The position numbers and the translations under genes are program-made. This document shows positions 1,814 through 16,839 of a stretch of DNA of 64,000 bases, piece after piece. The stretch comes from Pyrinomonadaceae bacterium (GTDB lineage Bacteria; Acidobacteriota; Blastocatellia; Pyrinomonadales; Pyrinomonadaceae). The notes beneath the pieces are model-generated. The model made no database searches and had not been told where the DNA came from. It saw nothing but the letters and a program-made list of their open reading frames with translations. The stretch's first letter is position 1. Each line of letters begins with the position of its first letter. The stretch covers positions 4,790 through 68,789 of the forward strand of contig JBGQJU010000012.1 of assembly GCA_041499185.1 (NCBI GenBank), in the 5' to 3' direction.

Positions 1814-2371
1814 TCAATTCAATCTCAGGCTCAGTTGATTACCTTGTGAAACACTGATGTCTCTCATCGTAGGCCCAACATCATTTGGCCAACTGTATAG
1901 AATGCTCTGAAGTCCGCCAGGAAGCGAATTGTCGAGCGCAGCGACAAGTCCCGATACGCGGTAAAAATGAGGAACCATTAGATCGTCTTGGCTTACCAGC
2001 ACATTGGCTGTACGAGTCCCGAGCTTTTCCAGTAGGGGCTTGGGATTCTTGAGAAACGCAATTAGGAAGAACTGCAGCTGGTATTTCACTTGGGATGCAG
2101 CTGAATAGGAAAAGACGGGCCCGTGAGAAAACTCATCAGTCAGCGGTGACAGTTCAAAAGAATTGAAACTTCGAAGAACTGGGACTTCTTCGAGTAGTTC
2201 GCGTCGAGCTGCTCTTCTTAGACTTCGGCCATCTTGATCCCGCTCATGACCACCAATAAAATTTATGTCCTTCCACCTTGGATCTCGACGCATCAGGTAG
2301 TGGGACGCACCATCAATTTGGAACTTCATGACAATGAAGCCACAACGAGAGATTTTGAGATTCTCACTCAT
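1814..2371 (-). CDS. Nudix hydrolase family protein
   Basis: Nudix-box-like GGHERDQDGRSLRRAARRELLEEVPV. The start overlaps the stop of the upstream gene by 4 nt (ATGA). GC is lower than in the flanks. Confidence 0.75.
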   Translation of the reverse strand: MSENLKISRCGFIVMKFQIDGASHYLMRRDPRWKDINFIGGHERDQDGRSLRRAARRELLEEVPVLRSFNSFELSPLTDEFSHGPVFSYSAASQVKYQLQFFLIAFLKNPKPLLEKLGTRTANVLVSQDDLMVPHFYRVSGLVAALDNSLPGGLQSILYSWPNDVGPTMRDISVSQGNQLSLRLN

Positions 2372-3714
2372 GACCCACTTCCAATCTGGTTAAGGATGGC
2401 TCGCGACCAGCTTTCTAAGCTCAGCTCGTCCTCATGGCCTATCAAATCACCCAAATCCACAAACTCCCCAACGAGTCCATGACCGCGCTTTTTTCGAAAC
2501 TCCTTCTTCTTGAGATCCATCGCCGTATGTGGGTTGTCGATACGGATTCTATAGACGAGTCCAAAATGACGGCTGCTTTTGGCGTCATCACGGTCCCAAC
2601 AGTATCCTGCGGGGTCAGCGGCAAAGACTCTACTCACAAAGAGAGAACCGGACACTCTCTCCTGCAACGTCGACTTTAATAATTCTGGAATACTGGTACC
2701 TTCTCCCTTTGTGACGTGGCATCCCTGCCAAATCGTTGCTTTGCCGTATAGTCGATACTTAGGGTCAGCCTCCTTTCGCTGAAACAAGAACACTTGATCC
2801 TCGTAGGTCAATAAGCCGCAGGGAATGATTTGGACGTACGCGGATTCCAATTCAGCATCCACTCTTGACATGAATCTCCCACATTCTTTAATGCATGAGA
2901 TGGCATCGATAACAGCTTTCTCCCCAAAGGCTCCACCACGTTCTAGTGGAAGTGTCTGCAATTCTTTTCTTGGAACAACCAGTACCTCCGGATTCAGGAA
3001 AGCTTCCAGGCAATCTAGAATCTTCGACACTAACTCGATATTCGACTCCCTAGGCTTTTGCCCGGTAGTCTGATGTTTGATAATTGCGCCGAACCTGGAG
3101 CCGTAGCGTTTCGACGCTTCTTCGACAGACTCAGTAATAGCAGCCAACACTGGCGGGTTCATGATGCTACCCATCTTTTGGGTGATGCGATTGGCGGTTT
3201 CACGATCAAGCGCTTCTTCAGCGGACACGTTCATAACGATCGCCAAATCAACTAATCTACGCCAACGGCTTAACAAGAGGAAAGTCTCTATCGTTCTGGC
3301 TTCGCTGGCAGTTAACTCGCCGCGTTTTTCCTGCAATGTCATCCAGACAAGCGCGTCGAATAGGCCTCGGTCGATAATAATAAGATCCGTTTCCGTCTCC
3401 ACATTCGCGAGAAGTTCTGCGAGCATGGATGCAGCGCACCACGTGTTAAAGAACAAGTGTCCCTTCATTGGAATAGGGCAAACTGCGGCTCTCTCTGCCA
3501 ATACATGGACCCGAAAGCCTTGGCGCGTGAAGAAGTGACGGATGGCCTCTACAGATGTGCTTTTGCCTGATTTTGGAGTGCCGGCGAATTCCATAACAAA
3601 AGCCCGAGGGGCGTATTGAAGGAATCCCCTTAACTTGTCCGCCCGAGCCTCTAGTTTTGTTACTTCGAACTCGATATCGGAGGACACAACACTTCCCTTA
3701 TCAGAATTGTCCAT
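2368..3714 (-). CDS. fusion protein: N-terminal P-loop nucleoside/nucleotide-kinase-like domain + C-terminal Nudix-fold-like domain
   Basis: Walker A GTPKSGKST and a dNK-like DRGLFDALVW motif. The C-terminal about 200 aa (IIPCGLLTYEDQVFLFQRK...WQGCHVTKGEG...LQERVSG) has a Nudix-like layout with a degenerate box. Confidence 0.7.
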   Translation of the reverse strand: MDNSDKGSVVSSDIEFEVTKLEARADKLRGFLQYAPRAFVMEFAGTPKSGKSTSVEAIRHFFTRQGFRVHVLAERAAVCPIPMKGHLFFNTWCAASMLAELLANVETETDLIIIDRGLFDALVWMTLQEKRGELTASEARTIETFLLLSRWRRLVDLAIVMNVSAEEALDRETANRITQKMGSIMNPPVLAAITESVEEASKRYGSRFGAIIKHQTTGQKPRESNIELVSKILDCLEAFLNPEVLVVPRKELQTLPLERGGAFGEKAVIDAISCIKECGRFMSRVDAELESAYVQIIPCGLLTYEDQVFLFQRKEADPKYRLYGKATIWQGCHVTKGEGTSIPELLKSTLQERVSGSLFVSRVFAADPAGYCWDRDDAKSSRHFGLVYRIRIDNPHTAMDLKKKEFRKKRGHGLVGEFVDLGDLIGHEDELSLESWSRAILNQIGSGS

Positions 3715-7500: not shown

Positions 7501-10500
7501 ATGGTTCCGCCAGGCTCGAGTCATGGAGTTAGGGTGTCAAAAGAAATCTGGTTAGGTCCGCTGCTTGGCAACAATCGTTCGCGTTTGGTCGAGCGCTGCG
7601 CCGATCTTGTCTCACAAAACAAGGCTAACAGCTTTCTGTATCTCGCCGCTTCTCATCCGCTGCTGGAGATCGTCACGCAAGGTATTCTTGATGGTGAAAA
7701 TAATCGCGGCGTTTGGGGCGAGTTGCCCGTCTATCTCTTTCGTGGTCTTGTCAGGCGAATTCTTTCAGCTGCTATTGACGAAAGTGGGCAGACGCTTACA
7801 CCACGCGTTCCGATCGACCAAGACGAGCTGCCGCTAAGACGAAGTTTGATCTCGCAGATTCTGGCGCGTCTGATGGGTACGGGCAAACTGAAAGCAATCG
7901 CCCCGCTCGCCTATCGCGAAGGATGCATCAATACGATCGCGACGCTGATTGGCGAGATCGAGCGGGCCGCCAAGTCACCCGCCGAAGTTACAGCGATCAT
8001 CGCGGCCCGCACCAATGACCTTGCACCACAAACAAGTGCGACGAAGCGCGGCGTTCATACGCAGATTGATTTCGATAAAGAGGTCGCGCTGATCTACTCG
8101 ACTTATTGCGAGTTGCTGAATCGGCATCGGCTCACCGAAGCAGACGCGGATAGTTTGCGCGCTCTCTCAGTTCTCAACGGCGAGCTTGACGGGCAAAAGG
8201 TACAAATCTCAGCGCTGGCCGATGTGCAACTGCTCGTGCTCGATGGCTTTTTTGACTTCACGCCGGTGCAGGGCGAGATCTTGCGTCGGTTAGTTCCCCG
8301 GATTCCCAAGGTAATCGTCAATCTGAATCACGACGAGCGCAATCCGGAGATCTTTCTGCCGTTTCAGGAAACCATCGAGCATATTTCGTCCGTCGCGCCT
8401 TTTGAGAAAAAGTGGAGCGGCTATAAGAACATCGCTCTTACACGCGGCGCTCTCTCGGGTCTGCGGGAAAACTTGTTCAATCCCTCACTATCTACCGAGC
8501 AACAACCCGAAGACCCTGGGAGCGGGGAGGCAGTCGAGATCCGATACTTTGAATCTGGTGATCGCGATACCGAGATTCACGCAGTTGCCAAAGAGATCAA
8601 ACGGCTCGTCCTGCGTGAAGGTTACAGTCTGGCGGACGTCGCGCTTGTCGTACGTCAGCGCGCGTCGTACGCCGACACGATCGCTCGCGTGATGCGCGAA
8701 GAATCGCTGCCCTGCAATCTGGAATCAAGGATTGTAGCCAACGACATTCCCGCCAACCGCGCAGCGCTCAAACTGTTTGCGATTCTCGAGCAGCTTTCGC
8801 GTGACGAAATCACTACTCCGAAAGTTTCCGCGCTGGCCGACCTGATCAAGTCGGAATACTTCCGTCTGAGCGAGGAAGATCTGAGCTCACTTTTGTCGAA
8901 GTTCAATGCCGAGCACTCCGGGCTGTTGCGGGAAAGCGATCAAACGCCTGACGCCAAACGCGAAGCACAACTAAAAAATCGTTACCGCATCGGTGTGTGG
9001 GACGCGGACTCACTTGAGAATACGTTCGCCTATGTAGGCAGCGAACTGCGCGTGAGCGAGTGGCTAAACCGCGCCCGCCAACTGATAAAAGAACTTCCCG
9101 CCGCCGCCGCAACCAAAGAACTTCTGAACATCGACACCACCGAGCAAGCGCGCGATCCGGACGAGGCCGACCAGATCGAGAACGCCGAAACGGCAAAGGT
9201 TGAGAGTGCGGACGTCGAGAAGAAGCGTCGCCCATCGCGCGACATCCATCCCGCAGCGATCGCCTGGGCCTCGCTCGTGATTCAAAGTTTCGCCGAGCGG
9301 ATACAAGCCATTTCCCGCGAAGGCAAGCCTGCCGATTTGCGTCTGGCGTTGATGAAATTGCTCGATCACTTCTGTTTTCGCGAGCAAATTGCAAAGCCAA
9401 TCAGGAGTGCAGTTCAAGACCGCGAACTCCCGCTAGCAATGCTCAACTTCAATAGTCTCGAATCCCTGCGTCGCGCTTTTGTGGCGACCATCAAGAGTAT
9501 CGAGATCGCCGCTGACATCGGGTCAGAACCACCTGCGGTAGCGGGTGGGTTTAATGCGGCAACAACAACCAGGCTCGCAACTTTCATTGAAGAGGTGCGT
9601 CGTTGCCTCGGCTCGCAGTCGCAACTGTTTGGCGCCAGGGATGCGCGAGGCCTGCGCGTGCTCGAAGCAACGGACGTGCGTGGACTGCGCTTTCGCGCCG
9701 TCTTCATCGCGGGATTGGTTGAAGGTGGATTTCCCTTGCGTGCTTCGCGTGACTGGATCTACCCGCATGAAGAGCGCGAGCGGCTGAAAGTTTACGGCCT
9801 AACGCTGGAAGATATTTCGCCGGCGACGCTTTTGAAAGAGGAACACTATTTTTATCAGGCAGCGTGTCGCGCCACCGAACGGCTCTACCTCAGCCGCCCG
9901 CTATTGTTGGAAGACGATTCTGAAACCGTCGCCTCTTATTATATCGATGAGCTGCGGCGTGCCGTCGCGCCACTTAAGATTGAAGCTGAGACGATTCGTC
10001 GCGATTACGACGCCAAGAACCTGGAGGAAGTCTCAACCACGAGCGAACTGGATGTCGCGTTGGTGCGCCAGCAAGAGAGGCACATTCATCGCGGCGAGAA
10101 ACGGGAGTTACTGCCACAGCCACGCATCAAGCGAATGCTGACCCTGGCGCGCAACGATGGTTTCCTGAGCGACTCCGCCTTGCGGCGCATCGAAATCGAG
10201 CGCGAGCGCGCCAGTCAATCGTTTGGACCTTACGACGGCGAGATCACCGATCCGCATCTGATTGCCCTGCTGAACCAGAGATTCGGTCCGAACTTTGTGC
10301 ATAGCGCGAGCGGCCTGAGTGTGTATGGCAATTGCGCGTACCGTTTCTTTGCCCAGCGAGTATTGAAGTTGGAGCCGCGTGGTGAAGCGGCGCTCGATCT
10401 GCAAGCGATCGACGCGGGCAAGCTGCTGCACGACATTCTGCGGCGTTTCTTCGAGCAGCATCGACGCCAGCCGCTTTATAAATTGGATCGCGAAGCGCTG

Positions 10501-11271
10501 CAAAAAGAGCTGCGCGATCTGGCGGACGGAGTCTTCAACGAACACGAGCGAGTCGTGCCGCCGCTGAACAAACAGATCTGGAAGATCGATCGCGAGATTC
10601 GCAAGATCCTGCTGGATCAGGTGCTTTTGTATGAGCTGGAGATGCAAGAAAAGGCTGCTGCTCATGGAGTCTTGCCGGCGTATTTTGAGGTCGCGTTTGG
10701 CGGTATGAAATCCACGGCGAGAGATCCTCACTCGAAAGATGAACCACTCGAGCTGACTCGTTCCACCTTCGTCGGCGAAGAGACGATCAAGATCAGCGGT
10801 CAAATCGATCGCGTCGATATTGCCGGCGACAACACGCTCATCGCCTATGACTACAAACTGTCAACTGGATCCACCAAAGACGACATCAAGTCGGGCCGCA
10901 GTCTGCAGCTTCCCATTTATCTGGAAGCTTTGGAGAAATTGATACTCCCGCGTCACACGATCGCCGGTGGCGGCTACTACGTGATACGCGGCGGCAACGA
11001 CCGCCGGAATAAAGGACTTCATCGCGCGAGCGCGTTGGATTACTCCGGAATCAGTGCTCGAGCGGGCGCCGTCATTGCCGATGACGAGTGGCAGCAGATT
11101 CGCGACGAAGTGATCGCGAAGATCTGGGATTTTCTAGATCACATGCGCGCCGGGCAGTTCGTGGTAAATCCTTCCGAGAAGGAAAAGACATGCCGGTTCT
11201 GCGATTTTGCGGCGGTGTGCCGATATGACCGGTATCGGATTGAGAGGAAGAAGCGAAGAGATGACGGTTAG
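7501..11271 (+). CDS. addB: AddB-like helicase-nuclease subunit (inactive helicase-like N-terminus, C-terminal PD-(D/E)XK nuclease with Fe-S cysteines)
   Basis: Size 1256 aa with no Walker A at the N-terminus. C-terminal nuclease motifs GNCAYRFFAQRVL, IDRVD, AYDYK, and CRFCDFAAVC (C...CxxCx5C). Lies in a locus with an AddA-like gene. Confidence 0.8.
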   Translation: MVPPGSSHGVRVSKEIWLGPLLGNNRSRLVERCADLVSQNKANSFLYLAASHPLLEIVTQGILDGENNRGVWGELPVYLFRGLVRRILSAAIDESGQTLTPRVPIDQDELPLRRSLISQILARLMGTGKLKAIAPLAYREGCINTIATLIGEIERAAKSPAEVTAIIAARTNDLAPQTSATKRGVHTQIDFDKEVALIYSTYCELLNRHRLTEADADSLRALSVLNGELDGQKVQISALADVQLLVLDGFFDFTPVQGEILRRLVPRIPKVIVNLNHDERNPEIFLPFQETIEHISSVAPFEKKWSGYKNIALTRGALSGLRENLFNPSLSTEQQPEDPGSGEAVEIRYFESGDRDTEIHAVAKEIKRLVLREGYSLADVALVVRQRASYADTIARVMREESLPCNLESRIVANDIPANRAALKLFAILEQLSRDEITTPKVSALADLIKSEYFRLSEEDLSSLLSKFNAEHSGLLRESDQTPDAKREAQLKNRYRIGVWDADSLENTFAYVGSELRVSEWLNRARQLIKELPAAAATKELLNIDTTEQARDPDEADQIENAETAKVESADVEKKRRPSRDIHPAAIAWASLVIQSFAERIQAISREGKPADLRLALMKLLDHFCFREQIAKPIRSAVQDRELPLAMLNFNSLESLRRAFVATIKSIEIAADIGSEPPAVAGGFNAATTTRLATFIEEVRRCLGSQSQLFGARDARGLRVLEATDVRGLRFRAVFIAGLVEGGFPLRASRDWIYPHEERERLKVYGLTLEDISPATLLKEEHYFYQAACRATERLYLSRPLLLEDDSETVASYYIDELRRAVAPLKIEAETIRRDYDAKNLEEVSTTSELDVALVRQQERHIHRGEKRELLPQPRIKRMLTLARNDGFLSDSALRRIEIERERASQSFGPYDGEITDPHLIALLNQRFGPNFVHSASGLSVYGNCAYRFFAQRVLKLEPRGEAALDLQAIDAGKLLHDILRRFFEQHRRQPLYKLDREALQKELRDLADGVFNEHERVVPPLNKQIWKIDREIRKILLDQVLLYELEMQEKAAAHGVLPAYFEVAFGGMKSTARDPHSKDEPLELTRSTFVGEETIKISGQIDRVDIAGDNTLIAYDYKLSTGSTKDDIKSGRSLQLPIYLEALEKLILPRHTIAGGGYYVIRGGNDRRNKGLHRASALDYSGISARAGAVIADDEWQQIRDEVIAKIWDFLDHMRAGQFVVNPSEKEKTCRFCDFAAVCRYDRYRIERKKRRDDG

Positions 11272-11328
11272 GTCGATAACGAGGTTAAAATTCTCAACGA
11301 TCCTTATCAGGATCATCAGGATCATTCA

Positions 11329-12705
11329 ATGCTAATTCCCGGATGGATTCTCGACGAGATTAAGGCAGACCAAGAATTGAGACCTTCCGAGGGCCGCCTC
11401 CATTTGGCTAATTTAGTAGCTTCTACGGAGCATCACGCAAAAAAAATTGTTGGCGGTACCGTCCTGAGATATAGGATGGTTAAATTGCACAATCAAGTGG
11501 TGAAGGCCTACGACTTTCCGACAAATCGAACCGCTCGGATCTCTATCAAAGTTCCCGCCATAAACCGCCTGTTTGAGCTTGTGATCGGACTTGCTCATCC
11601 GATGTCGAGAACGGAAGCGATCGTTCTGTACGCAATAGCCGCTGCACATATTGCGGCGGGCGAAAGCATAGGAGCCTCATACTACTATCTTACGTCGTCT
11701 TGGCTCCAGAGAATGGATGAAGAGATTATTGCTCTCGCCTTGAAAACTCTTGTAGATCAAGATTGGAAGGTTCCCATTGAGAGGGATGTGTTAGACGAAG
11801 CATTTCAATTTGTCGAATCACTAATGACGACGAGTTATGAGGGACGCGCGCCTGAGATAGGTGTCGCCGTAACGCGGACAAGAAGACATCAAGACGAGTT
11901 GAAAGCAATAAAGCTCCGGGACCTCCTGCTGTCAAAGAAGACCAGAGCTTTATTTGCCGGACATCGTAATCTTCTCATTTGCACACGGAATGGCGAGGTG
12001 CACCAGAGTTATATTAATCTTTCGCCTTATTCGGATGTGCCGCTAATGCCGAAGGGCCGGCCCTGGTATTTGGCTCCGTACGAGTACCAACCGATCATGG
12101 AGTTTTCGCGCAAACGCAATGCTGTTACGTTCTTGTTAACCCGCAAACGAGAGGTATTGGTTATTCTAGGGTCCCAGATTCATTTCATAAGAAGCGCCCG
12201 AGCGTGGCGCGTTCTCCCGATGGAGAGGTTCATCGGTCTGCTAAGCGAACTCTTATGGAAAAACTCGAAGAAGCGTTTGTCCCGCGATCGTTCTCGTACC
12301 TTGGCTGGATATATCGGAATTCTCTGTCTCTCTTTGCGAGAGCGTGGGAAAGGTGGTCTATTCGGCATTTACGGGAACGGAAGAAAACCCAAGGAATCAT
12401 CAATTCCAGCATCGCTAACAGAAGAGTTTTTTCAGTCTTTGCTTTGTAAGCGACCAATTGTTGAGGTGCCAGTTTCCATGATGTGCAACGCTGCTGCAGT
12501 GGACGGGGCGACTCTGTTGGCCTGGGACGGAACGCTGGAGAGATTTGGAGTTATTGTCAACACAGGGAAGTTGAAAAGTCCGAGCGAAGGAGCACGGACC
12601 CGAGCGGCTGAATTCATCTCACGCCGAGGGATCGCAGTTAAGGTGAGTGAGGATGGAGAGATTACTCTGTTTGCGGCCGGTAAGCCGTTAATGAGAGTCG
12701 ACTAG
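11329..12705 (+). CDS. hypothetical protein with a C-terminal DisA_N/diadenylate-cyclase-like domain (degenerate RHR motif)
   Basis: The C-terminal about 120 aa (GKGGLFGIYG...AAAVDGATLLAWDGTLERFGVIVN...SEGARTRAAEFISRRGIAVKVSEDGEITLFAAG) follows the DAC pattern (DGA...GTRHRAA...vSeetG.isl), with RTR in place of RHR. GC is clearly lower than in the flanking addB and addA. Confidence 0.6.
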   Translation: MLIPGWILDEIKADQELRPSEGRLHLANLVASTEHHAKKIVGGTVLRYRMVKLHNQVVKAYDFPTNRTARISIKVPAINRLFELVIGLAHPMSRTEAIVLYAIAAAHIAAGESIGASYYYLTSSWLQRMDEEIIALALKTLVDQDWKVPIERDVLDEAFQFVESLMTTSYEGRAPEIGVAVTRTRRHQDELKAIKLRDLLLSKKTRALFAGHRNLLICTRNGEVHQSYINLSPYSDVPLMPKGRPWYLAPYEYQPIMEFSRKRNAVTFLLTRKREVLVILGSQIHFIRSARAWRVLPMERFIGLLSELLWKNSKKRLSRDRSRTLAGYIGILCLSLRERGKGGLFGIYGNGRKPKESSIPASLTEEFFQSLLCKRPIVEVPVSMMCNAAAVDGATLLAWDGTLERFGVIVNTGKLKSPSEGARTRAAEFISRRGIAVKVSEDGEITLFAAGKPLMRVD

Positions 12706-12741
12706 CCAGATTACATGTGGACTCCCATGATCGTACTGTTC

Positions 12742-12950
12742 GCGGCTTTGCCGCCCGATGTGCGGTAGGTCTGTGTCTGTCTGTGACCTTCCGTCAGCTG
12801 AAGCCAAGACTTCGGGGCTACGCCCCTGAGATTCGGTAGGGCGTTCAGGATCACCATCGTCTACGGCGCCAAACATATGGGCGCAGCCCCAACAATAAAC
12901 CCTGACACCGGAAGGGCAGAGCCCTTCCGCACATCGGGCGGCAAAGCCGC
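12742..12950. repeat. 209-bp element bounded by perfect 24-bp inverted repeats (MITE- or structured-RNA-like)
   Basis: gcggctttgccgcccgatgtgcgg (12742-12765) is the exact reverse complement of ccgcacatcgggcggcaaagccgc (12927-12950). Internal hairpin ggaagggc-aga-gcccttcc at 12910-12928. Confidence 0.85.
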
Positions 12951-12954
12951 TGCC

Positions 12955-15900
12955 ATGAAACAAAAACAACTCCAACCTGAACAGGCCGCGGCAGCATACG
13001 AAATAACCAGGCACATCTCTGTAACCGCCGGCCCGGGTTCCGGCAAGACGATGGTGCTGGTCGAGCGTTACTTGCACATTCTGCGCGAGCGCAAGCTCTC
13101 GATCGATCAAATCGTCGCCATCACCTTCACCAATCGCGCGGCGAACGAAATGCGCGAGCGTCTCAGAGAGCAACTCAATGACATCCTGCAAAGGGCATCG
13201 GGAGAAGACAGAAAGCATTGGCTTGATTACAAACGCACGCTGGATGGCGCGGTAATCACGACAATTCACGGTTTCTGCGCGCGGCTGCTGCGCGAGTTTC
13301 CGGTCGAAGCGCGTGTCGATCCACAGTTTCTCTTGCTCGATGAGCACCGCGCGGCGATGCTGCTGGAAGCCGTGGTCGAGGAAGCGCTCACGGAGTTTAT
13401 CAGCTCCGGCCACGTCGAAATCTCACGGCTAACACTCGGCGTCGGACGTGGCAAGTTGGCCGCCGCGCTCGCGCAACTTTACCGCGAAGTCCGTGGACAG
13501 GGCCTTTCATTGAAAGACCTCGCGCGGAAGACCGTGCAGAGTCACTCGACCGAAGACGATCATGCGCAGGCACTCAATGAGCTATCGCGTACGATGAATG
13601 ACTTTCTGATATTGCGAAGGACAACTGCGGCGCAAAGAAACAATCAAGCAGAAGTTAGTTCCAATTGGTCCAATCTGCGTCCTTTGCTTCATACCATCCC
13701 CGAGCCCGAAGCGTTGGCTGATTACTGTCGCGCGGTCGAGAGTTTCCGCAAGTCGCGCCCGCAGGCCCGGGGCGATCTTGCGTCGCACGTAAAAGCACTA
13801 GACGAGTTGATTTGGGAAAAGGATCTGCTCGGGCGGGTTCCGCAGCTTTGCCTGGACCTGTTCGCCAAACAGTACGCGCTCGAGATTGTCAACGTGCTGA
13901 CGCGCATCGACGAACGACTGAATGACGAGAAGCAGAAACTGTCGGCGCTTGATTTCGACGATCTCGAACTGCGCGCGCTTGAACTGTTGGAACGCCCGGA
14001 AGTACTAACGCGTGCCGCTGAGCGATACAAATTCTTTCTGGTTGACGAGTTCCAGGACACGAATGGTTTGCAGCGAAGGCTGCTCGAGCGGCTCGCTTTT
14101 CAGAAAGGCCGCCGCGAAAGCGCGAACCTGTTCATTGTCGGCGATCGCAAGCAGTCGATCTACGGTTTTCGTGGTGCGGATGTCGATGTCTTCCGCGAGA
14201 TGACAAACACGTTGACGGCGGCCGGCGGTGAATCAAAACCGCTGCTGCTAAATTTTCGCAGTCAGCCGCCGCTGATCGATTTTTTCAATTACCTGTTCGA
14301 GCGATTGTTCCAGCCCAAAGAAGAGGTCACTCAGCAGGAGCGAGAAGAGCTGGGCTATGTCGAGCACGAACCGAGCGAAGCGAAACGTGAACTGCGCGAT
14401 AGCGGACCGCTGGTTGAGTTGCTGGTGACAACGGAAGCGTCGGGTGACGATGACGATCCAAAAGCGGAGCAAACCTCTCGCGAGCTTGATGCGGAACAAT
14501 TGGCGCGACGGATTATCGACCTTACGGGGAGCGCAGGCACTATCCACTCAGACAAGTTGGCAATTCCAATTGAAGGCGGGCAGGATGCCCGCGCTCCCAG
14601 GTACAGTGGTATCGCGCTCCTGTTTCGCGCGATGACCAATGTGCAACGGTACGAATCGGCTTTTCGCCGCGCAAATATTCCTTATCAAACGGTGCTTGGG
14701 CGAGGCTTCTACCAACGCGAAGAAATCACCGATCTGATCCAACTACTGCGATTTCTCGATAACAAAACCGATGAGTTGGCGCTGGCGGCGGTGCTGCGTT
14801 CACCACTGTGCGGCGCATCGGACAATGCCTTGCTGGCGCTGCGTTGCGCGCCGTGGCTGGATGAACTAGACAGCGGCGATCCGCTGCTGCACTTCACGAA
14901 CACGCGCCATCTGGTTACCGCACTGCGCCGGCATCGCGAGATAGCATTTATCAGCGATGAGGAACACGCGCTGCTCGATCGCGCGGCCGAACTAATCAAC
15001 GATCTGGTGGTGCGTCGACATCATTACGCCCTCGGCGATCTGTTGCGGTTCGCAGTCGAACATTCAGAATACTTGACTGTGATTGCCGCCACCTTCGACG
15101 GCGCGCAGCGGCTGGCGAATGTGCAACGGCTGTTCACGCTCGCCGAGCGCTTCGAACGCTCAGGCACTCATCTAATTCGCGACTTTGTGCGCTACGTTGA
15201 GGAATTCGAGGCGATCGGCAGCCGCGAAAGTGAAGGGCAGATCGATGAAGCCACGAACGCCGTGCGCTTAATGACCATTCATCAGGCCAAGGGTCTCGAA
15301 TTTCCTGTAGTCATCATTCCCGAGCTGCAGCGATACTCTAAGGTGATGGATAACTGGTTCCTCTCGGATCGTCATCGCGGTCTGACTCTGAAGGTGCCAG
15401 ACGGACGCGGCAAGTTAGTTGCCGGCTGTACCTTTAACCGCTTCGAACAACGCCACGCCTGGCGCGAGCAGTTTGAAAGCATGCGGCTGCTTTATGTCGC
15501 GGCGACCCGCGCGCAGGATCGATTGATACTCTCGGGCACAACCAAGGAACTCGAAGGTCTCACCGGCAAGAGCGATACCTGGCTGAAGTGGATCTGGCAA
15601 TCGCTCGGTCTGGAAGCTCAAACGCAGAGCGGCGTCATCGATCTAACTGACGATGTCCAGATTCAGCTTTCACTGAACCTTGCGGACCAGCCGGAGCAAC
15701 CAATACTTGCCGAGGCAACGACGACGGAAAAGACTTGGGAAGCTGCGGATTCACTCGCTGAAGCTTTCCCGTTGTTGAAGCTGATCGAACCTGGGCGAGC
15801 TGCCGGCCTGCATCGTTTCAGCGTCACACAGTTGATCAACTATCGCCGTTGTCCGCGTCAATACTATTTCGATCGGGTGTTGCGGTTGCCATCGTCGGAA

Positions 15901-16839
15901 GAGATGGCCGTCTGGAACGATGCGGAAGCTCCCGAGCCGCCTGCCAATTTGACCGCGACGCTCAAGGGGGCAGTCATTCACCGCTTCTGCGAAATATTTT
16001 GCCCCGGTGACGATCCGGTCGTGCGTTTGCGCCAGAGTTTTCAGGATCTCATTCGACTGAGAAAGGCGCAGCTCGCGGATCGATTGCCCGACATAGATGG
16101 AGAGCAGGCCGTGACGGAGTTGCTGCCGCTGGCCGAGCATTATCTTGCGAGCGAAGTGTTTCAACGCATCAATGAAGCGCGCGCTCACTGTGCAGCCGAC
16201 TCAATCGCCTGGCCGTCAAACAATGGTGGTCTTTGGAGCGAGTTGGGATTTCGTATCCGTCGTCCGCTGGGAATCTTGACGGGTGCAATCGATAAACTTC
16301 TGGTTACGCCCTCAAGTAACGCGTGCGACGTCGAAATCATCGACTTCAAAACCAACCGCCTGCCGGGACCGCGGACGCTTCGGGGTCCCCAGCGGAGCGT
16401 CAAAGGCGCTGGAGCGATACCTGCCGTAGTTAGCACGGTGCAACAAATTGCTTTCGACTTTACCGAGCCAGCCCCACAGAAACGTGCGGAAGACGCCACG
16501 GAAATTGACGAAGCCGTACGGCGGCTGGCCTCAGATTATCAACTGCAAATGCAAGCCTACGCTCTTGCCGTTCGCGAGTTACTACCCGCGCCCGTCAACG
16601 ATCACAACCGAATCAAAGTCACACTTCACTTTCTCGATCCGAATGTCGAGTACAATCTGCCCGAAGAATTACTCGAGCCGGCCGTCTGTGCTCGCGCCAT
16701 CGATGAAGCAATGATTGAGATCGTCTCTTCACGCGAGCCGACAGACTTTCCCGTTCACCCAGCCATTCATTGCCGCACGTGCAACTTTCTTGAGTTGTGC
16801 TCCGGCGGGCGAGAATGGCTGCGCCACAACAAAACCTAG
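12955..16839 (+). CDS. addA: AddA-like UvrD/Rep-family helicase with a C-terminal PD-(D/E)XK nuclease
   Basis: Walker A AGPGSGKT, motif II FLVDEFQDT, helicase motif VI LLYVAATRAQDRL. C-terminal nuclease with CPRQYYF...IIDFK...CRTCNFLELC. The ATG at 12955 is preferred because the upstream extension covers the inverted repeat. Confidence 0.85.
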   Translation: MKQKQLQPEQAAAAYEITRHISVTAGPGSGKTMVLVERYLHILRERKLSIDQIVAITFTNRAANEMRERLREQLNDILQRASGEDRKHWLDYKRTLDGAVITTIHGFCARLLREFPVEARVDPQFLLLDEHRAAMLLEAVVEEALTEFISSGHVEISRLTLGVGRGKLAAALAQLYREVRGQGLSLKDLARKTVQSHSTEDDHAQALNELSRTMNDFLILRRTTAAQRNNQAEVSSNWSNLRPLLHTIPEPEALADYCRAVESFRKSRPQARGDLASHVKALDELIWEKDLLGRVPQLCLDLFAKQYALEIVNVLTRIDERLNDEKQKLSALDFDDLELRALELLERPEVLTRAAERYKFFLVDEFQDTNGLQRRLLERLAFQKGRRESANLFIVGDRKQSIYGFRGADVDVFREMTNTLTAAGGESKPLLLNFRSQPPLIDFFNYLFERLFQPKEEVTQQEREELGYVEHEPSEAKRELRDSGPLVELLVTTEASGDDDDPKAEQTSRELDAEQLARRIIDLTGSAGTIHSDKLAIPIEGGQDARAPRYSGIALLFRAMTNVQRYESAFRRANIPYQTVLGRGFYQREEITDLIQLLRFLDNKTDELALAAVLRSPLCGASDNALLALRCAPWLDELDSGDPLLHFTNTRHLVTALRRHREIAFISDEEHALLDRAAELINDLVVRRHHYALGDLLRFAVEHSEYLTVIAATFDGAQRLANVQRLFTLAERFERSGTHLIRDFVRYVEEFEAIGSRESEGQIDEATNAVRLMTIHQAKGLEFPVVIIPELQRYSKVMDNWFLSDRHRGLTLKVPDGRGKLVAGCTFNRFEQRHAWREQFESMRLLYVAATRAQDRLILSGTTKELEGLTGKSDTWLKWIWQSLGLEAQTQSGVIDLTDDVQIQLSLNLADQPEQPILAEATTTEKTWEAADSLAEAFPLLKLIEPGRAAGLHRFSVTQLINYRRCPRQYYFDRVLRLPSSEEMAVWNDAEAPEPPANLTATLKGAVIHRFCEIFCPGDDPVVRLRQSFQDLIRLRKAQLADRLPDIDGEQAVTELLPLAEHYLASEVFQRINEARAHCAADSIAWPSNNGGLWSELGFRIRRPLGILTGAIDKLLVTPSSNACDVEIIDFKTNRLPGPRTLRGPQRSVKGAGAIPAVVSTVQQIAFDFTEPAPQKRAEDATEIDEAVRRLASDYQLQMQAYALAVRELLPAPVNDHNRIKVTLHFLDPNVEYNLPEELLEPAVCARAIDEAMIEIVSSREPTDFPVHPAIHCRTCNFLELCSGGREWLRHNKT
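14527..14598. repeat. 72-bp REP-like hairpin element embedded in-frame in addA
   Basis: The arms gggagcgcaggca and tgcccgcgctccc are complementary at 12 of 13 positions. It shares the same termini as the intergenic element at 20332-20420 and contains the sub-hairpin gcgggca-gga-tgcccgc. Confidence 0.7.

What the first reader, a model, noticed from the sequence alone, without database searches (positions are those of the whole stretch)
11329..12705. Low-GC gene for a degenerate diadenylate-cyclase (DisA_N)-like protein inserted between addB and addA
Seen:
- A 458-aa ORF sits between the AddB-like and AddA-like genes, which are normally adjacent and co-transcribed.
- Its GC is far lower than its neighbours (for example, line 11401 is about 42 %).
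- The C-terminal about 120 aa follow the DAC pattern. The DGA motif is intact (DGA at 12502-12510), but RTR (12595-12603) replaces the catalytic RHR.

Established knowledge: DisA couples c-di-AMP synthesis to DNA-integrity scanning, and both the DGA and RHR motifs are needed for cyclase activity.

Inference: this is either a horizontally acquired nucleotide-signalling or nucleotide-binding protein wired to DNA-end processing, or a defence or anti-defence cargo exploiting the addAB operon.
Basis: partly seen in the sequence, partly recalled or inferred. Interest (0 to 1): 0.7.

Follow-up and report, generated by a model that had tools for sequence, protein, structure and literature searches.

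The report
Imported tandem DAC gene splitting addBA
A foreign, low-GC single gene has landed between the two DNA-repair genes addB and addA of a soil acidobacterium; it encodes a member of a large, uncharacterised family with a degenerate and an apparently intact diadenylate-cyclase domain in tandem, and it behaves like mobile defence-type cargo, not like a partner of AddAB.

Summary
A 458-aa ORF (11329-12705) lies between addB and addA, has the lowest GC3 of 30 long ORFs in the window, and carries DGA and RTR at the stated codons. The window is from a Pyrinomonadaceae (Acidobacteriota) genome.

None of 58 related addB-addA loci carries the gene. An empty site in L014 bounds a ~1.46-kb single-gene insert (about 11277-12741).

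An AlphaFold2 model (pLDDT 83.5) matches only diadenylate cyclases. Residues ~298-458 form a full DAC fold. Residues ~150-297 form a second, degenerate DAC-like domain.

"Degenerate" is misleading for the C-terminal domain. It keeps the four residues conserved in all DACs (D, G, G-x-R) plus the metal-site acid. Thr/Ser in place of the RHR His is a fixed signature of a family with more than 1,100 representative clusters.

Family members are always solitary, with no linked effector, and often sit beside toxin-antitoxin or defence genes. In sister species the same addB-addA spacer holds HicAB modules or a TIR protein.

Best reading: mobile conflict or defence-type cargo encoding a sensor-gated nucleotide-signal synthase. 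It is not an AddAB accessory factor. Activity and function are inferred, not shown.

The parts
7501..11271 (+). addB-like gene (context; intact C-terminus)
   Evidence: PDDEXK_1 1.9e-34, ADDB_N and UvrD_C; TIGR02773 addB 8.5e-49. Relatives align through residues 1250-1256.
11277..12741 (+). Inserted single-gene cassette, about 1.46 kb (boundaries approximate), GC 0.489
   Evidence: The empty site in L014 reads TAGGTCAAC|GCGGCTTTGCCGCC. The window reads TAGGTCGATAAC...X...TGTTC|GCGGCTTTGCCGCC. GC. No homolog of X in 58 related addB-addA loci.
11329..12705 (+). ORF X, 458 aa: tandem pseudo-DAC + DAC protein
   Evidence: AF2 model pLDDT 83.5, pTM 0.82. An AGGA motif lies 7 nt upstream of the ATG.
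11329..11775 (+). N-terminal region (aa 1-149): alpha/beta unit plus helices. Variable across the superfamily; presumed sensor or regulatory part.
   Evidence: Most distant relatives match only profile positions from about 150 onward. Column conservation is low over residues 1-160. No Pfam hit in 100 members.
11776..12219 (+). Pseudo-DAC domain (aa about 150-297), lacking the catalytic Asp (A210), G-x-R and S-x-D. Contains invariant Y170-E171 (11836-11841) and W293.
   Evidence: hhalign of this region against the C-terminal domain: probability 88-92%, E 6e-7 to 3e-6. A model of residues 1-297 alone hits 46 DAC chains in the PDB, with about 145 aligned columns and TMt about 0.5.
12220..12702 (+). 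Catalytic-type DAC domain (aa 298-458)
   Evidence: Foldseek PDB hits: CdaA 8c4n_B E 6.4e-5, DacM 7dg0, DacA 6gyw, DisA 9y4s/3c1y/4yxm. Residue-level HMM alignment to CdaA and CdaS sequences.
12502..12510 (+). DGA motif (D392 G393 A394)
   Evidence: D and G are invariant and A is present in 109 of 118 family representatives. Aligns to DGA of CdaA/CdaS.
12589..12609 (+). G-A-R-T-R-A-A (G421-A427), equivalent to G-T-R-H-R-A-A of canonical DACs
   Evidence: G421 and R423 are invariant. Position 424 is T in 81 and S in 20 of 118, never H. Position 425 is K 38, R 35, A 33. Alignment.
12640..12657 (+). K-V-S-E-D-G (K438-G443), equivalent to V-S-E-E-T-G; D442 sits at the metal-site Glu position
   Evidence: K438, S440 and G443 are invariant; D442 is present in 117 of 118. 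Alignment to CdaA 'IVSEETG'.
12742..12950 (.). Pre-existing palindromic REP/MITE-like element between the cassette and addA
   Evidence: 34-nt arms, 91% complementary, 24 nt perfect. RNA fold -122.8 kcal/mol, z = -7.1. Same element at the addB-addA junction in L014, L017, L018, L033 and L037, and elsewhere in L024 and L086.
12955..16839 (+). addA-like gene (context); probable true start at ATG 12955
   Evidence: UvrD-helicase 3e-62, PDDEXK_1, TIGR02785. Orthologs begin at the equivalent of MKQKQLQPEQAA, and the 26 extra codons of the 12877 call lie inside the palindrome.

Best explanation
X is a horizontally acquired single-gene cassette dropped into the addB-addA spacer. That spacer is a permissive site inside an operon, and in this bacterial family it repeatedly collects small accessory cargo. 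X belongs to a large, functionally uncharacterised family of soluble proteins of about 400-480 aa. Each has a variable N-terminal region, a degenerate DAC-like domain and a catalytic-type DAC domain. Shown: the insertion, the fold, the internal duplication, the conserved residues, and the solitary, patchy, defence- or TA-adjacent distribution. Inferred: the C-terminal domain is an active metal-dependent nucleotide-signal synthase making c-di-AMP or a variant cyclic or linear dinucleotide. Also inferred: the N-terminal and pseudo-DAC parts gate that activity, and the protein acts in genetic conflict (phage defence or a stress alarm). As no effector gene is linked, its product would have to be read by receptors encoded elsewhere or by the host's own c-di-AMP targets. 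It is probably transcribed by read-through from addB, but it has no specific functional tie to AddAB.
For: Insertion: absent from 58 of 58 related addB-addA loci, whose median spacer is 108 nt against 1,683 nt here. The empty site in L014 defines the junctions. GC 0.495 and GC3 z = -2.9. Homologs in L001 and L003 are also 6-8% below host GC. Fold: the top 20 PDB hits are all DACs. Residues 1-297 alone also hit 46 DAC chains, and internal hhalign gives E about 1e-6. Catalytic residues: D392, G393, G421, R423, K438, S440 and G443 are invariant and D442 is 117/118, and they align to DGA / GTRHRAA / VSEETG of CdaA. The literature says only D, G, G and R are universal in DACs (PMC13640721), and that PanS with DGF/GGR is active (10.64898/2026.08.10.743927). 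Family size: 1,153 representatives at E <= 1e-3. A Bacillus megaplasmid member gives hhalign 99.9%. Conflict-type context: ParE TA (L008), DUF433 (L010), PIN (L095), SNF2 + NOV_C + methyltransferase (L092), DEAD/MZB helicase (L100), reverse transcriptase + two Schlafen-like helicases + MazG (L102), and AAA + HNH, NucS-like and recombinases (L103). Hotspot: HicB/HicA in L012, L027 and L031, and a TIR_2 protein (PADLOC PDC-S66/SpbK/ThsB-like) in L060, all at the same spacer. No promoter-like or terminator-like site lies between addB and X.
Against: There is no biochemical evidence of activity. The RHR His is replaced in every member, and in the family the second Arg is often Lys or Ala. No PADLOC model matches X. 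No effector or receptor gene is linked in any of 12 contexts, which is unlike the validated DAC defence systems (PanDA/Panoptoo, CBASS-DAC). Several contexts are plainly housekeeping: thiC (L001), a flagellar cluster (L097) and L096. The defence association rests on a small, unsystematic sample. Promoters of Acidobacteriota may not fit the sigma-70 scan, so co-transcription with addB is not shown.
Confidence: 0.55

Rival explanations
1. A non-defence sensory diadenylate cyclase. X would be an ordinary, though horizontally moved, stress- or osmolyte-signalling DAC whose N-terminal part senses a cellular cue, like the many regulatory-domain DAC families. Its position in addBA would be accidental.
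For: The DAC fold and catalytic residues are present. N-terminal regulatory modules are the rule in DACs (Galperin 2023, as cited in PMC13640721). Some family contexts are housekeeping (L001, L096, L097). No effector gene is linked.
Against: The distribution is patchy even among close relatives, with only 7 close homologs among 5.8 billion proteins. GC is consistently low relative to the host. One copy is frameshifted. Many neighbours are TA or defence genes, and the gene occupies a spacer that elsewhere holds HicAB or TIR cargo. All of this is typical of accessory conflict genes, not core signalling.
Confidence: 0.22
2. A pseudo-enzyme or nucleotide receptor. Both DAC-like domains would be catalytically dead, and X would bind c-di-AMP, ATP or another nucleotide as a sensor or sponge.
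For: The RHR His is replaced by Thr/Ser throughout, and the second Arg is variable. One of the two domains is clearly degenerate. The Pfam DAC score is below threshold.
Against: Residues needed for chemistry, not merely for binding, are under strict conservation: the general-base/metal Asp392, the metal-site Asp442, Ser440 and Arg423. These include exactly the four residues conserved in all active DACs. Active defence DACs also deviate from DGA/RHR.
Confidence: 0.15
3. An AddAB-coupled DNA-damage signalling factor (DisA-like logic). X would be an accessory subunit or regulator linking double-strand-break processing to nucleotide signalling.
For: It lies inside the addB-addA operon in the same orientation, with no evident terminator after addB. 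DisA provides a precedent for DAC-DNA integrity coupling (established knowledge).
Against: Zero of 58 related addB-addA loci have it. None of 12 other family contexts involves addAB. There is no HhH or other DNA-binding domain, and GC is foreign. The same spacer holds unrelated cargo in sister species.
Confidence: 0.05
4. Phage-derived or anti-defence cargo, for example a remnant of a mobile element that manipulates host nucleotide signalling or AddAB.
For: Low GC and a single-gene insertion. AddAB/RecBCD is a common target of phage counter-defence (established knowledge).
Against: No hit in 50,697 phage records, in IMG/VR or in BFVD structures. No integrase, transposase, terminal repeats or conserved flanks.
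Confidence: 0.03

Closest known systems
CdaG / DS-2C, the DAC of CBASS-DAC (DS-2) systems
   Same: A multi-domain soluble DAC in which a catalytic DAC is preceded by a domain (DACNH) described as distantly DAC-like but lacking catalytic residues (PMC13640721). Lower GC than the host. Defence-associated. DAC catalytic residues are needed for defence (PMC13092281, PMC13069673).
   Different: No Pfam DACNG or DACNH hit in X or in 100 relatives. X is 458 aa and ends with the DAC domain, whereas CdaG is about 550-575 aa with a C-terminal helical bundle. No adjacent cGAS-like cyclase, phospholipase or 2TM-beta effector. No direct sequence comparison was possible because no CdaG sequence was at hand.
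PanS of PanDA / Panoptoo
   Same: A divergent DAC with non-canonical motifs (DGF, GGR) that is nevertheless active. A mobile, low-GC defence gene.
   Different: PanS is a minimal DAC of about 150 aa, and more than 90% of PanS genes are operonic with a 2TM-beta effector. X is a three-part 458-aa protein with no partner gene.
CdaA / DacA / CdaM / CdaS (housekeeping DACs)
   Same: Best structural matches. Motif-level alignment of DGA, GxRxxAA and VSxxG. CdaS (2fb5) likewise has regulatory N-terminal helices.
   Different: No His in the RHR motif. A tandem pseudo-DAC is present. There is no cdaR/glmM-type neighbourhood and the distribution is patchy. Sequence identity is only 14-22%.
DisA
   Same: DAC fold (9y4s, 3c1y, 4yxm among the hits).
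   Different: In DisA the DAC domain is N-terminal, followed by a helical linker and an HhH DNA-binding domain. X has the DAC at its C-terminus and no HhH domain.
RefSeq 'DNA integrity scanning protein DisA nucleotide-binding domain protein' entries such as WP_044585362.1 (Bacillus bombysepticus pBb) and MBN4071974.1
   Same: Same superfamily and architecture (hhalign 99.9%, E 5e-31 over the YE motif, pseudo-DAC and DAC). Solitary genes in mobile or defence-type surroundings.
   Different: About 20% identity to X and a different N-terminal region. These are generic annotations only, with no functional study found.

Membership tests
DAC (DisA_N, PF02457) domain superfamily | Pfam profile match at the gathering threshold | tested here: not met
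   X scores 20.0 bits against a cut-off of 27. However, 54 of 100 relatives match at E <= 0.1 (best 3.6e-10), and the Bacillus member scores 33.8 bits.
DAC (DisA_N, PF02457) domain superfamily | DAC fold | tested here: met
   The top 20 Foldseek PDB hits are all DAC enzymes, with 150-160 aligned columns and TMt 0.57-0.63.
DAC (DisA_N, PF02457) domain superfamily | The four residues conserved in all DACs: D and G of DGA, and G and R of G-x-R (PMC13640721) | tested here: met
   D392, G393, G421 and R423 are invariant in 118 relatives and align to CdaA/CdaS.
DAC (DisA_N, PF02457) domain superfamily | Full canonical RHR motif | tested here: not met
   X has R-T-R. The family has R-[T/S]-[K/R/A] and never His.
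DAC (DisA_N, PF02457) domain superfamily | Diadenylate cyclase activity | not testable with these tools
   Requires purified protein and a nucleotide-product assay.
DisA | N-terminal DAC, helical linker and C-terminal HhH DNA-binding domain | tested here: not met
   The DAC is C-terminal and there is no HhH or other DNA-binding Pfam hit.
CdaG / DS-2C (CBASS-DAC) | DACNG and DACNH N-terminal domains | tested here: not met
   No such Pfam hits at E <= 1 for X, or at E <= 0.1 for 100 relatives. An analogous pseudo-DAC domain does exist. I could not independently verify that these two models are in the Pfam copy.
CdaG / DS-2C (CBASS-DAC) | Neighbouring CD-NTase plus phospholipase or 2TM-beta effector | tested here: not met
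   The neighbours are addB and addA. No CBASS genes appear in any of 12 family contexts.
PanS (PanDA / Panoptoo) | Minimal DAC of about 150 aa, operonic with a 2TM-beta effector | tested here: not met
   X is 458 aa with three regions and has no adjacent small membrane protein.
AddAB accessory component | Conserved co-occurrence with addB/addA across lineages | tested here: not met
   Zero of 58 related loci, and family members elsewhere are never next to addAB.
Known anti-phage defence systems (PADLOC-DB 2.0) | Match to a defence-system protein model | tested here: not met
   Zero PADLOC hits at E <= 10.
Tandem pseudo-DAC + DAC family (defined here) | YE motif, pseudo-DAC, then DAC with DGA ... 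G[AS]R[TS]xAA ... K[VI]SxDG; 400-480 aa; solitary gene | tested here: met
   E171, G342, D392, G393, G421, R423, K438, S440 and G443 are invariant in 114 sequences. X is the top-scoring member.

The most novel reading that the evidence does not exclude
X-family proteins are self-contained, single-gene anti-phage alarm enzymes. The variable N-terminal region senses infection and relieves auto-inhibition by the pseudo-DAC. The true DAC domain then floods the cell with c-di-AMP, or with a variant product made possible by the His-to-Thr/Ser change. The host's own c-di-AMP receptors, or unlinked ones, convert that surge into growth arrest. In this scheme no dedicated effector gene is needed. A bolder extension is that siting such cargo (X, HicAB, TIR) inside addBA couples its expression to, or guards, the AddAB machinery that phages commonly inhibit.
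Probability: 0.12. Interest if true: 0.8.

Novelty: new variant of a known kind. Interest (0 to 1): 0.5.

Why it matters
DAC domains were validated as immune signalling enzymes only in 2026, in PanDA/Panoptoo and CBASS-DAC. Both of those systems pair the cyclase with an obvious effector.

This gene points to a much larger, unstudied set of DAC proteins: more than 1,100 clusters at 50% identity, spanning Acidobacteriota to Bacillota. The set has its own active-site signature and a built-in pseudo-DAC domain. It has no linked effector, and it behaves as mobile accessory cargo.

If these proteins are active, they would extend the range of c-di-AMP-type signalling. They would also raise the question of how a lone cyclase exerts an effect.

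Separately, the addB-addA spacer of Pyrinomonadaceae emerges as a recurrent landing site for TA and defence cargo. That makes it a useful anchor for finding new accessory genes in a poorly studied phylum.

Tried and rejected
- **Sequence searches of X alone.** PDB sequences, the 7-member profile against PDB, PADLOC and NCBIfam (one spurious TrmFO fragment) gave nothing.
- **Virus collections.** Phage records, IMG/VR with the 7-member alignment and BFVD structures gave no relatives. The 100-member alignment was too diverse for the search for related loci.
- **Plasmids.** One distant member only.
- **Pfam on 100 relatives.** No N-terminal family was recognised. The scattered single hits (TcfC, TRAM_2, NNH1 and others) are at noise level.
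- **Signs of a mobility mechanism.**
  - The 12-nt direct repeat TCAGGATCAYCA at 11307, 11316 and 12845 is no better than other chance repeats in the region, and its third copy lies inside the pre-existing palindrome. I rejected it as a target-site duplication.
  - There are no terminal inverted repeats and no integrase or transposase gene.
  - Homologs share no conserved flanks.
- **The large inverted repeat downstream of X.** I first suspected it was part of the cassette. It is a pre-existing dispersed element that is also present at empty sites.
- **Promoter and terminator scan.** Nothing above shuffled expectation.
- **Rfam on the window.** No hits.
- **Galperin 2023 (PMC10127676).** Not held. 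I could not check whether this architecture is one of its 22 DAC families.
- **CdaG/DS-2C.** No sequence could be obtained for a direct profile comparison.
Full report
**1. Observation**

The ORF is real: 11329-12705 on the + strand, 458 aa. DGA lies at 12502-12510 and RTR at 12595-12603.

The flanking genes are AddB-like (7501-11271; PDDEXK_1, ADDB_N, TIGR02773) and AddA-like (UvrD-helicase, UvrD_C, PDDEXK_1, TIGR02785). Both score far below the Firmicute equivalog cut-offs. That fits the source: identical loci and the nearest relatives are Pyrinomonadaceae (Acidobacteriota, Blastocatellia) metagenome-assembled genomes.

The low GC is also real:
- The ORF is 0.495, against 0.560 for addB and 0.567 for addA. 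The stretch 11401-11500 is 0.41.
- X has the lowest GC3 of 30 long ORFs in the window (z = -2.9).

**2. It is an insertion, and the site is a hotspot**

I fetched 80 AddA loci from species-representative genomes. Of these, 58 carry the addB C-terminus and addA on one contig.
- None encodes a relative of X.
- The median addB-stop to addA-start spacer is 108 nt (quartiles 52-184). In the window it is 1,683 nt.
- In L014 the addB stop is followed after 6 nt by a palindromic element (TAGGTCAAC|GCGGCTTTGCCGCC...). In the window the same two junction sequences are separated by X (TAGGTCGATAAC ... TGTTC|GCGGCTTTGCCGCC). This bounds a cassette of about 1.46 kb, roughly 11277-12741, that contains only X.
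- I found no integrase, terminal repeats or credible target-site duplication.

Four other species have gene cargo in the same spacer:

| Locus | Cargo |
|---|---|
| L012 | An unknown 211-aa ORF plus HicB (UPF0150, 90 bits) and HicA |
| L027 | HicB and HicA |
| L031 | HicB |
| L060 | A TIR_2 protein with PADLOC PDC-S66/SpbK/ThsB-like matches, plus two small ORFs |

All four have GC below their flanks. The spacer is therefore a recurrent landing site for TA and defence-type cargo.

**3. What the protein is**

By sequence alone X is nearly orphan:
- It has 7 relatives among 5.8 billion clustered proteins.
- Its Pfam DAC hit is below threshold.
- It has no PADLOC, NCBIfam or PDB-sequence match.

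An AlphaFold2 model built from the 7 sequences is confident (pLDDT 83.5, pTM 0.82). Its 20 best PDB matches are all diadenylate cyclases (CdaA, DacM, DacA, CdaM, DisA) over about 150-160 columns. Residues ~298-458 are therefore a complete DAC fold.

A separate model of residues 1-297 (pLDDT 78.5) also retrieves DAC structures: 46 chains, about 145 columns, TMt about 0.5, led by the CdaS-type 2fb5. Profile-profile alignment of residues ~150-297 against the C-terminal domain gives probability 88-92% and E about 1e-6.

X is therefore a tandem of a degenerate DAC-like domain and a catalytic-type DAC domain. An N-terminal part of about 150 residues (an alpha/beta unit plus helices) precedes them and has no detectable relatives.

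In the pseudo-domain, the catalytic positions have been lost as follows:
- The catalytic Asp position is Ala210 in X. It is Asp in 70 of 114 relatives.
- The G-x-R and S-x-D positions are lost in all members.

**4. A large family with its own signature**

An exhaustive profile search of 1.84 billion representatives found 1,153 proteins at E <= 1e-3 and 374 at E <= 1e-10. Most are 400-480 aa and match from profile position ~150 to the end.

Conservation across 114-118 full-length members:
- **Invariant:** E171, G342, D392, G393, G421, R423, K438, S440, G443.
- **Nearly invariant:** Y170, G211, P250, L270, W293, A394, G407, A426, A427, G434, D442.
- **Position of the RHR His:** Thr in 81 and Ser in 20 of 118, never His.
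- **Position of the second Arg:** Lys, Arg or Ala.

An HMM alignment to solved CdaA and CdaS sequences places the family motifs as follows:

| Family motif | Canonical motif |
|---|---|
| DGA | DGA |
| G-a-R-t-k-A-A | G-T-R-H-R-A-A |
| K-v-S-s-D-G | V-S-E-E-t-G |

D442 therefore sits at the second Glu of that motif. From my own knowledge of CdaA structures, which I did not test here, that Glu is the metal ligand.

Two August 2026 preprints bear on whether RTR means inactive:
- Across all curated DACs only D, G, G and R are fully conserved (PMC13640721).
- PanS enzymes with DGF and GGR motifs make c-di-AMP or 3'3'-cUA (10.64898/2026.08.10.743927).

X retains all four universal residues, so "degenerate" is not justified for the C-terminal domain. 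Activity remains an inference.

**5. Context across the family**

In 12 distinct contexts the gene is always solitary and has no conserved neighbour.

| Locus | Neighbours |
|---|---|
| L001 | Follows thiC |
| L003 | Frameshifted copy |
| L008 | ParE/antitoxin |
| L010 | DUF433 |
| L092/L093 | SNF2 helicase, NOV_C, N6_N4 methyltransferase |
| L095 | PIN |
| L096 | Nothing notable |
| L097 | Between fliW and flgM |
| L100 | DEAD/MZB helicase |
| L102 | Reverse transcriptase, two Schlafen-like helicases, MazG |
| L103 | Bacillus megaplasmid: AAA + HNH, NucS-like, recombinases |

The L103 protein is a clear family member (hhalign 99.9%).

About half of these neighbourhoods are TA, defence or mobile in character. 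The sample is small and unsystematic. There are no phage or viral relatives.

**6. Mechanism**

Shown:
- A foreign single-gene insert in a cargo hotspot.
- A tandem pseudo-DAC/DAC architecture.
- Strict conservation of the chemistry-relevant residues in the second domain.
- No linked effector gene.

Inferred:
- X is an active, metal-dependent nucleotide-signal synthase.
- The variable N-terminal region and the pseudo-DAC gate it.
- It serves genetic conflict (phage defence or an alarm signal) and not AddAB function.

Canonical DACs need two active sites facing each other. The pseudo-DAC could therefore mask the active face until a trigger allows DAC-DAC dimerisation, or it could form an asymmetric single site. 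The invariant E171 and W293 may take part in this. I could not inspect model coordinates to decide.

Expression is probably by read-through from addB, for three reasons. The gap is 57 nt. An AGGA motif lies 7 nt upstream of the ATG. No promoter-like or terminator-like site was found.

**7. Comparison with known systems**

- **CdaG/DS-2C of CBASS-DAC** is the nearest in concept. Its DAC is preceded by DACNH, described as distantly DAC-like without catalytic residues (PMC13640721). However, X has no DACNG or DACNH Pfam match, no C-terminal helical bundle and no CBASS neighbours.
- **PanS** is a minimal DAC paired with a 2TM-beta effector.
- **DisA** has the opposite domain order and an HhH domain.
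- **CdaA and CdaS** are the best structural matches, but they are housekeeping enzymes with a canonical RHR.

RefSeq labels family members only as "DisA nucleotide-binding domain protein". I found no functional study. Galperin's 22-family census could not be read, so the architecture may already be catalogued there.

**8. Verdict**

A horizontally acquired DAC-like gene is confirmed. Defence-type cargo is plausible. A functional link to DNA-end processing is not supported, and "degenerate" is misleading.
- Novelty: a new variant of a known kind. It is an uncharacterised, effector-less tandem DAC family with a distinct active-site signature.
- Interest is moderate (0.5). The topic is timely and experimentally tractable, but function is unproven and the fold family is known.

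Noticed in passing
window 12742-12950: A palindromic element of about 209 nt (34-nt arms, 24 nt perfect; RNA fold -122.8 kcal/mol, z = -7.1) ends 5 nt before the probable addA start. The same element family sits at the addB-addA junction in L014, L017, L018, L033 and L037, and at unrelated sites in L024 and L086. It looks like a dispersed REP/MITE-like repeat of Pyrinomonadaceae. No Rfam match.
   Followed up: partly
window 12877-12954: The mechanical addA ORF start (ATG 12877) is probably wrong. Its first 26 codons lie inside the palindrome, and orthologs start at the equivalent of ATG 12955 (MKQKQLQPEQAA).
   Followed up: yes
L012:8841-10000, L027:9419-10000, L031:9130-10000, L060:8612-10000: The addB-addA spacer of sister species carries other low-GC cargo: HicB/HicA modules (L012, L027, L031), an unknown 211-aa ORF (L012), and a TIR-domain protein with defence-model matches plus two small ORFs (L060). 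This makes the spacer a recurrent insertion hotspot.
   Followed up: partly
window 1814-3714 (- strand): A second low-GC gene pair (GC 0.494, z = -2.4): a 448-aa P-loop NTPase (weak MeaB/AAA_28 hits) followed by a 185-aa weakly NUDIX-like protein. It is possibly another acquired accessory module.
   Followed up: partly
L003:4607-5975: The Pyrinomonadaceae homolog P0006 is split by a frameshift near residue 370 (tblastn frames 2 and 3). It is either a decaying copy or an assembly error.
   Followed up: partly
L097:7001-8245: A distant family member (P0097, 414 aa) is wedged between fliW and flgM inside a flagellar gene cluster. This is another case of a solitary copy inserted among housekeeping genes.
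   Followed up: no
L022, L023, L056, L083 (addB 3' end to addA start): Other relatives have a different long inverted repeat (CCGCAGATTACGCCGATT ... AATCGGCGTAATCTGCGGA). It bridges the last codons of addB and the region just upstream of addA. This suggests that a hairpin at this junction is a recurring feature, whatever the sequence.
   Followed up: no
window 11836-11841 and 12205-12207 (Y170-E171, W293): E171 is invariant and W293 nearly invariant across 114 family members. Both lie in the pseudo-DAC region and have no counterpart in canonical DACs. Their role is unknown.
   Followed up: no
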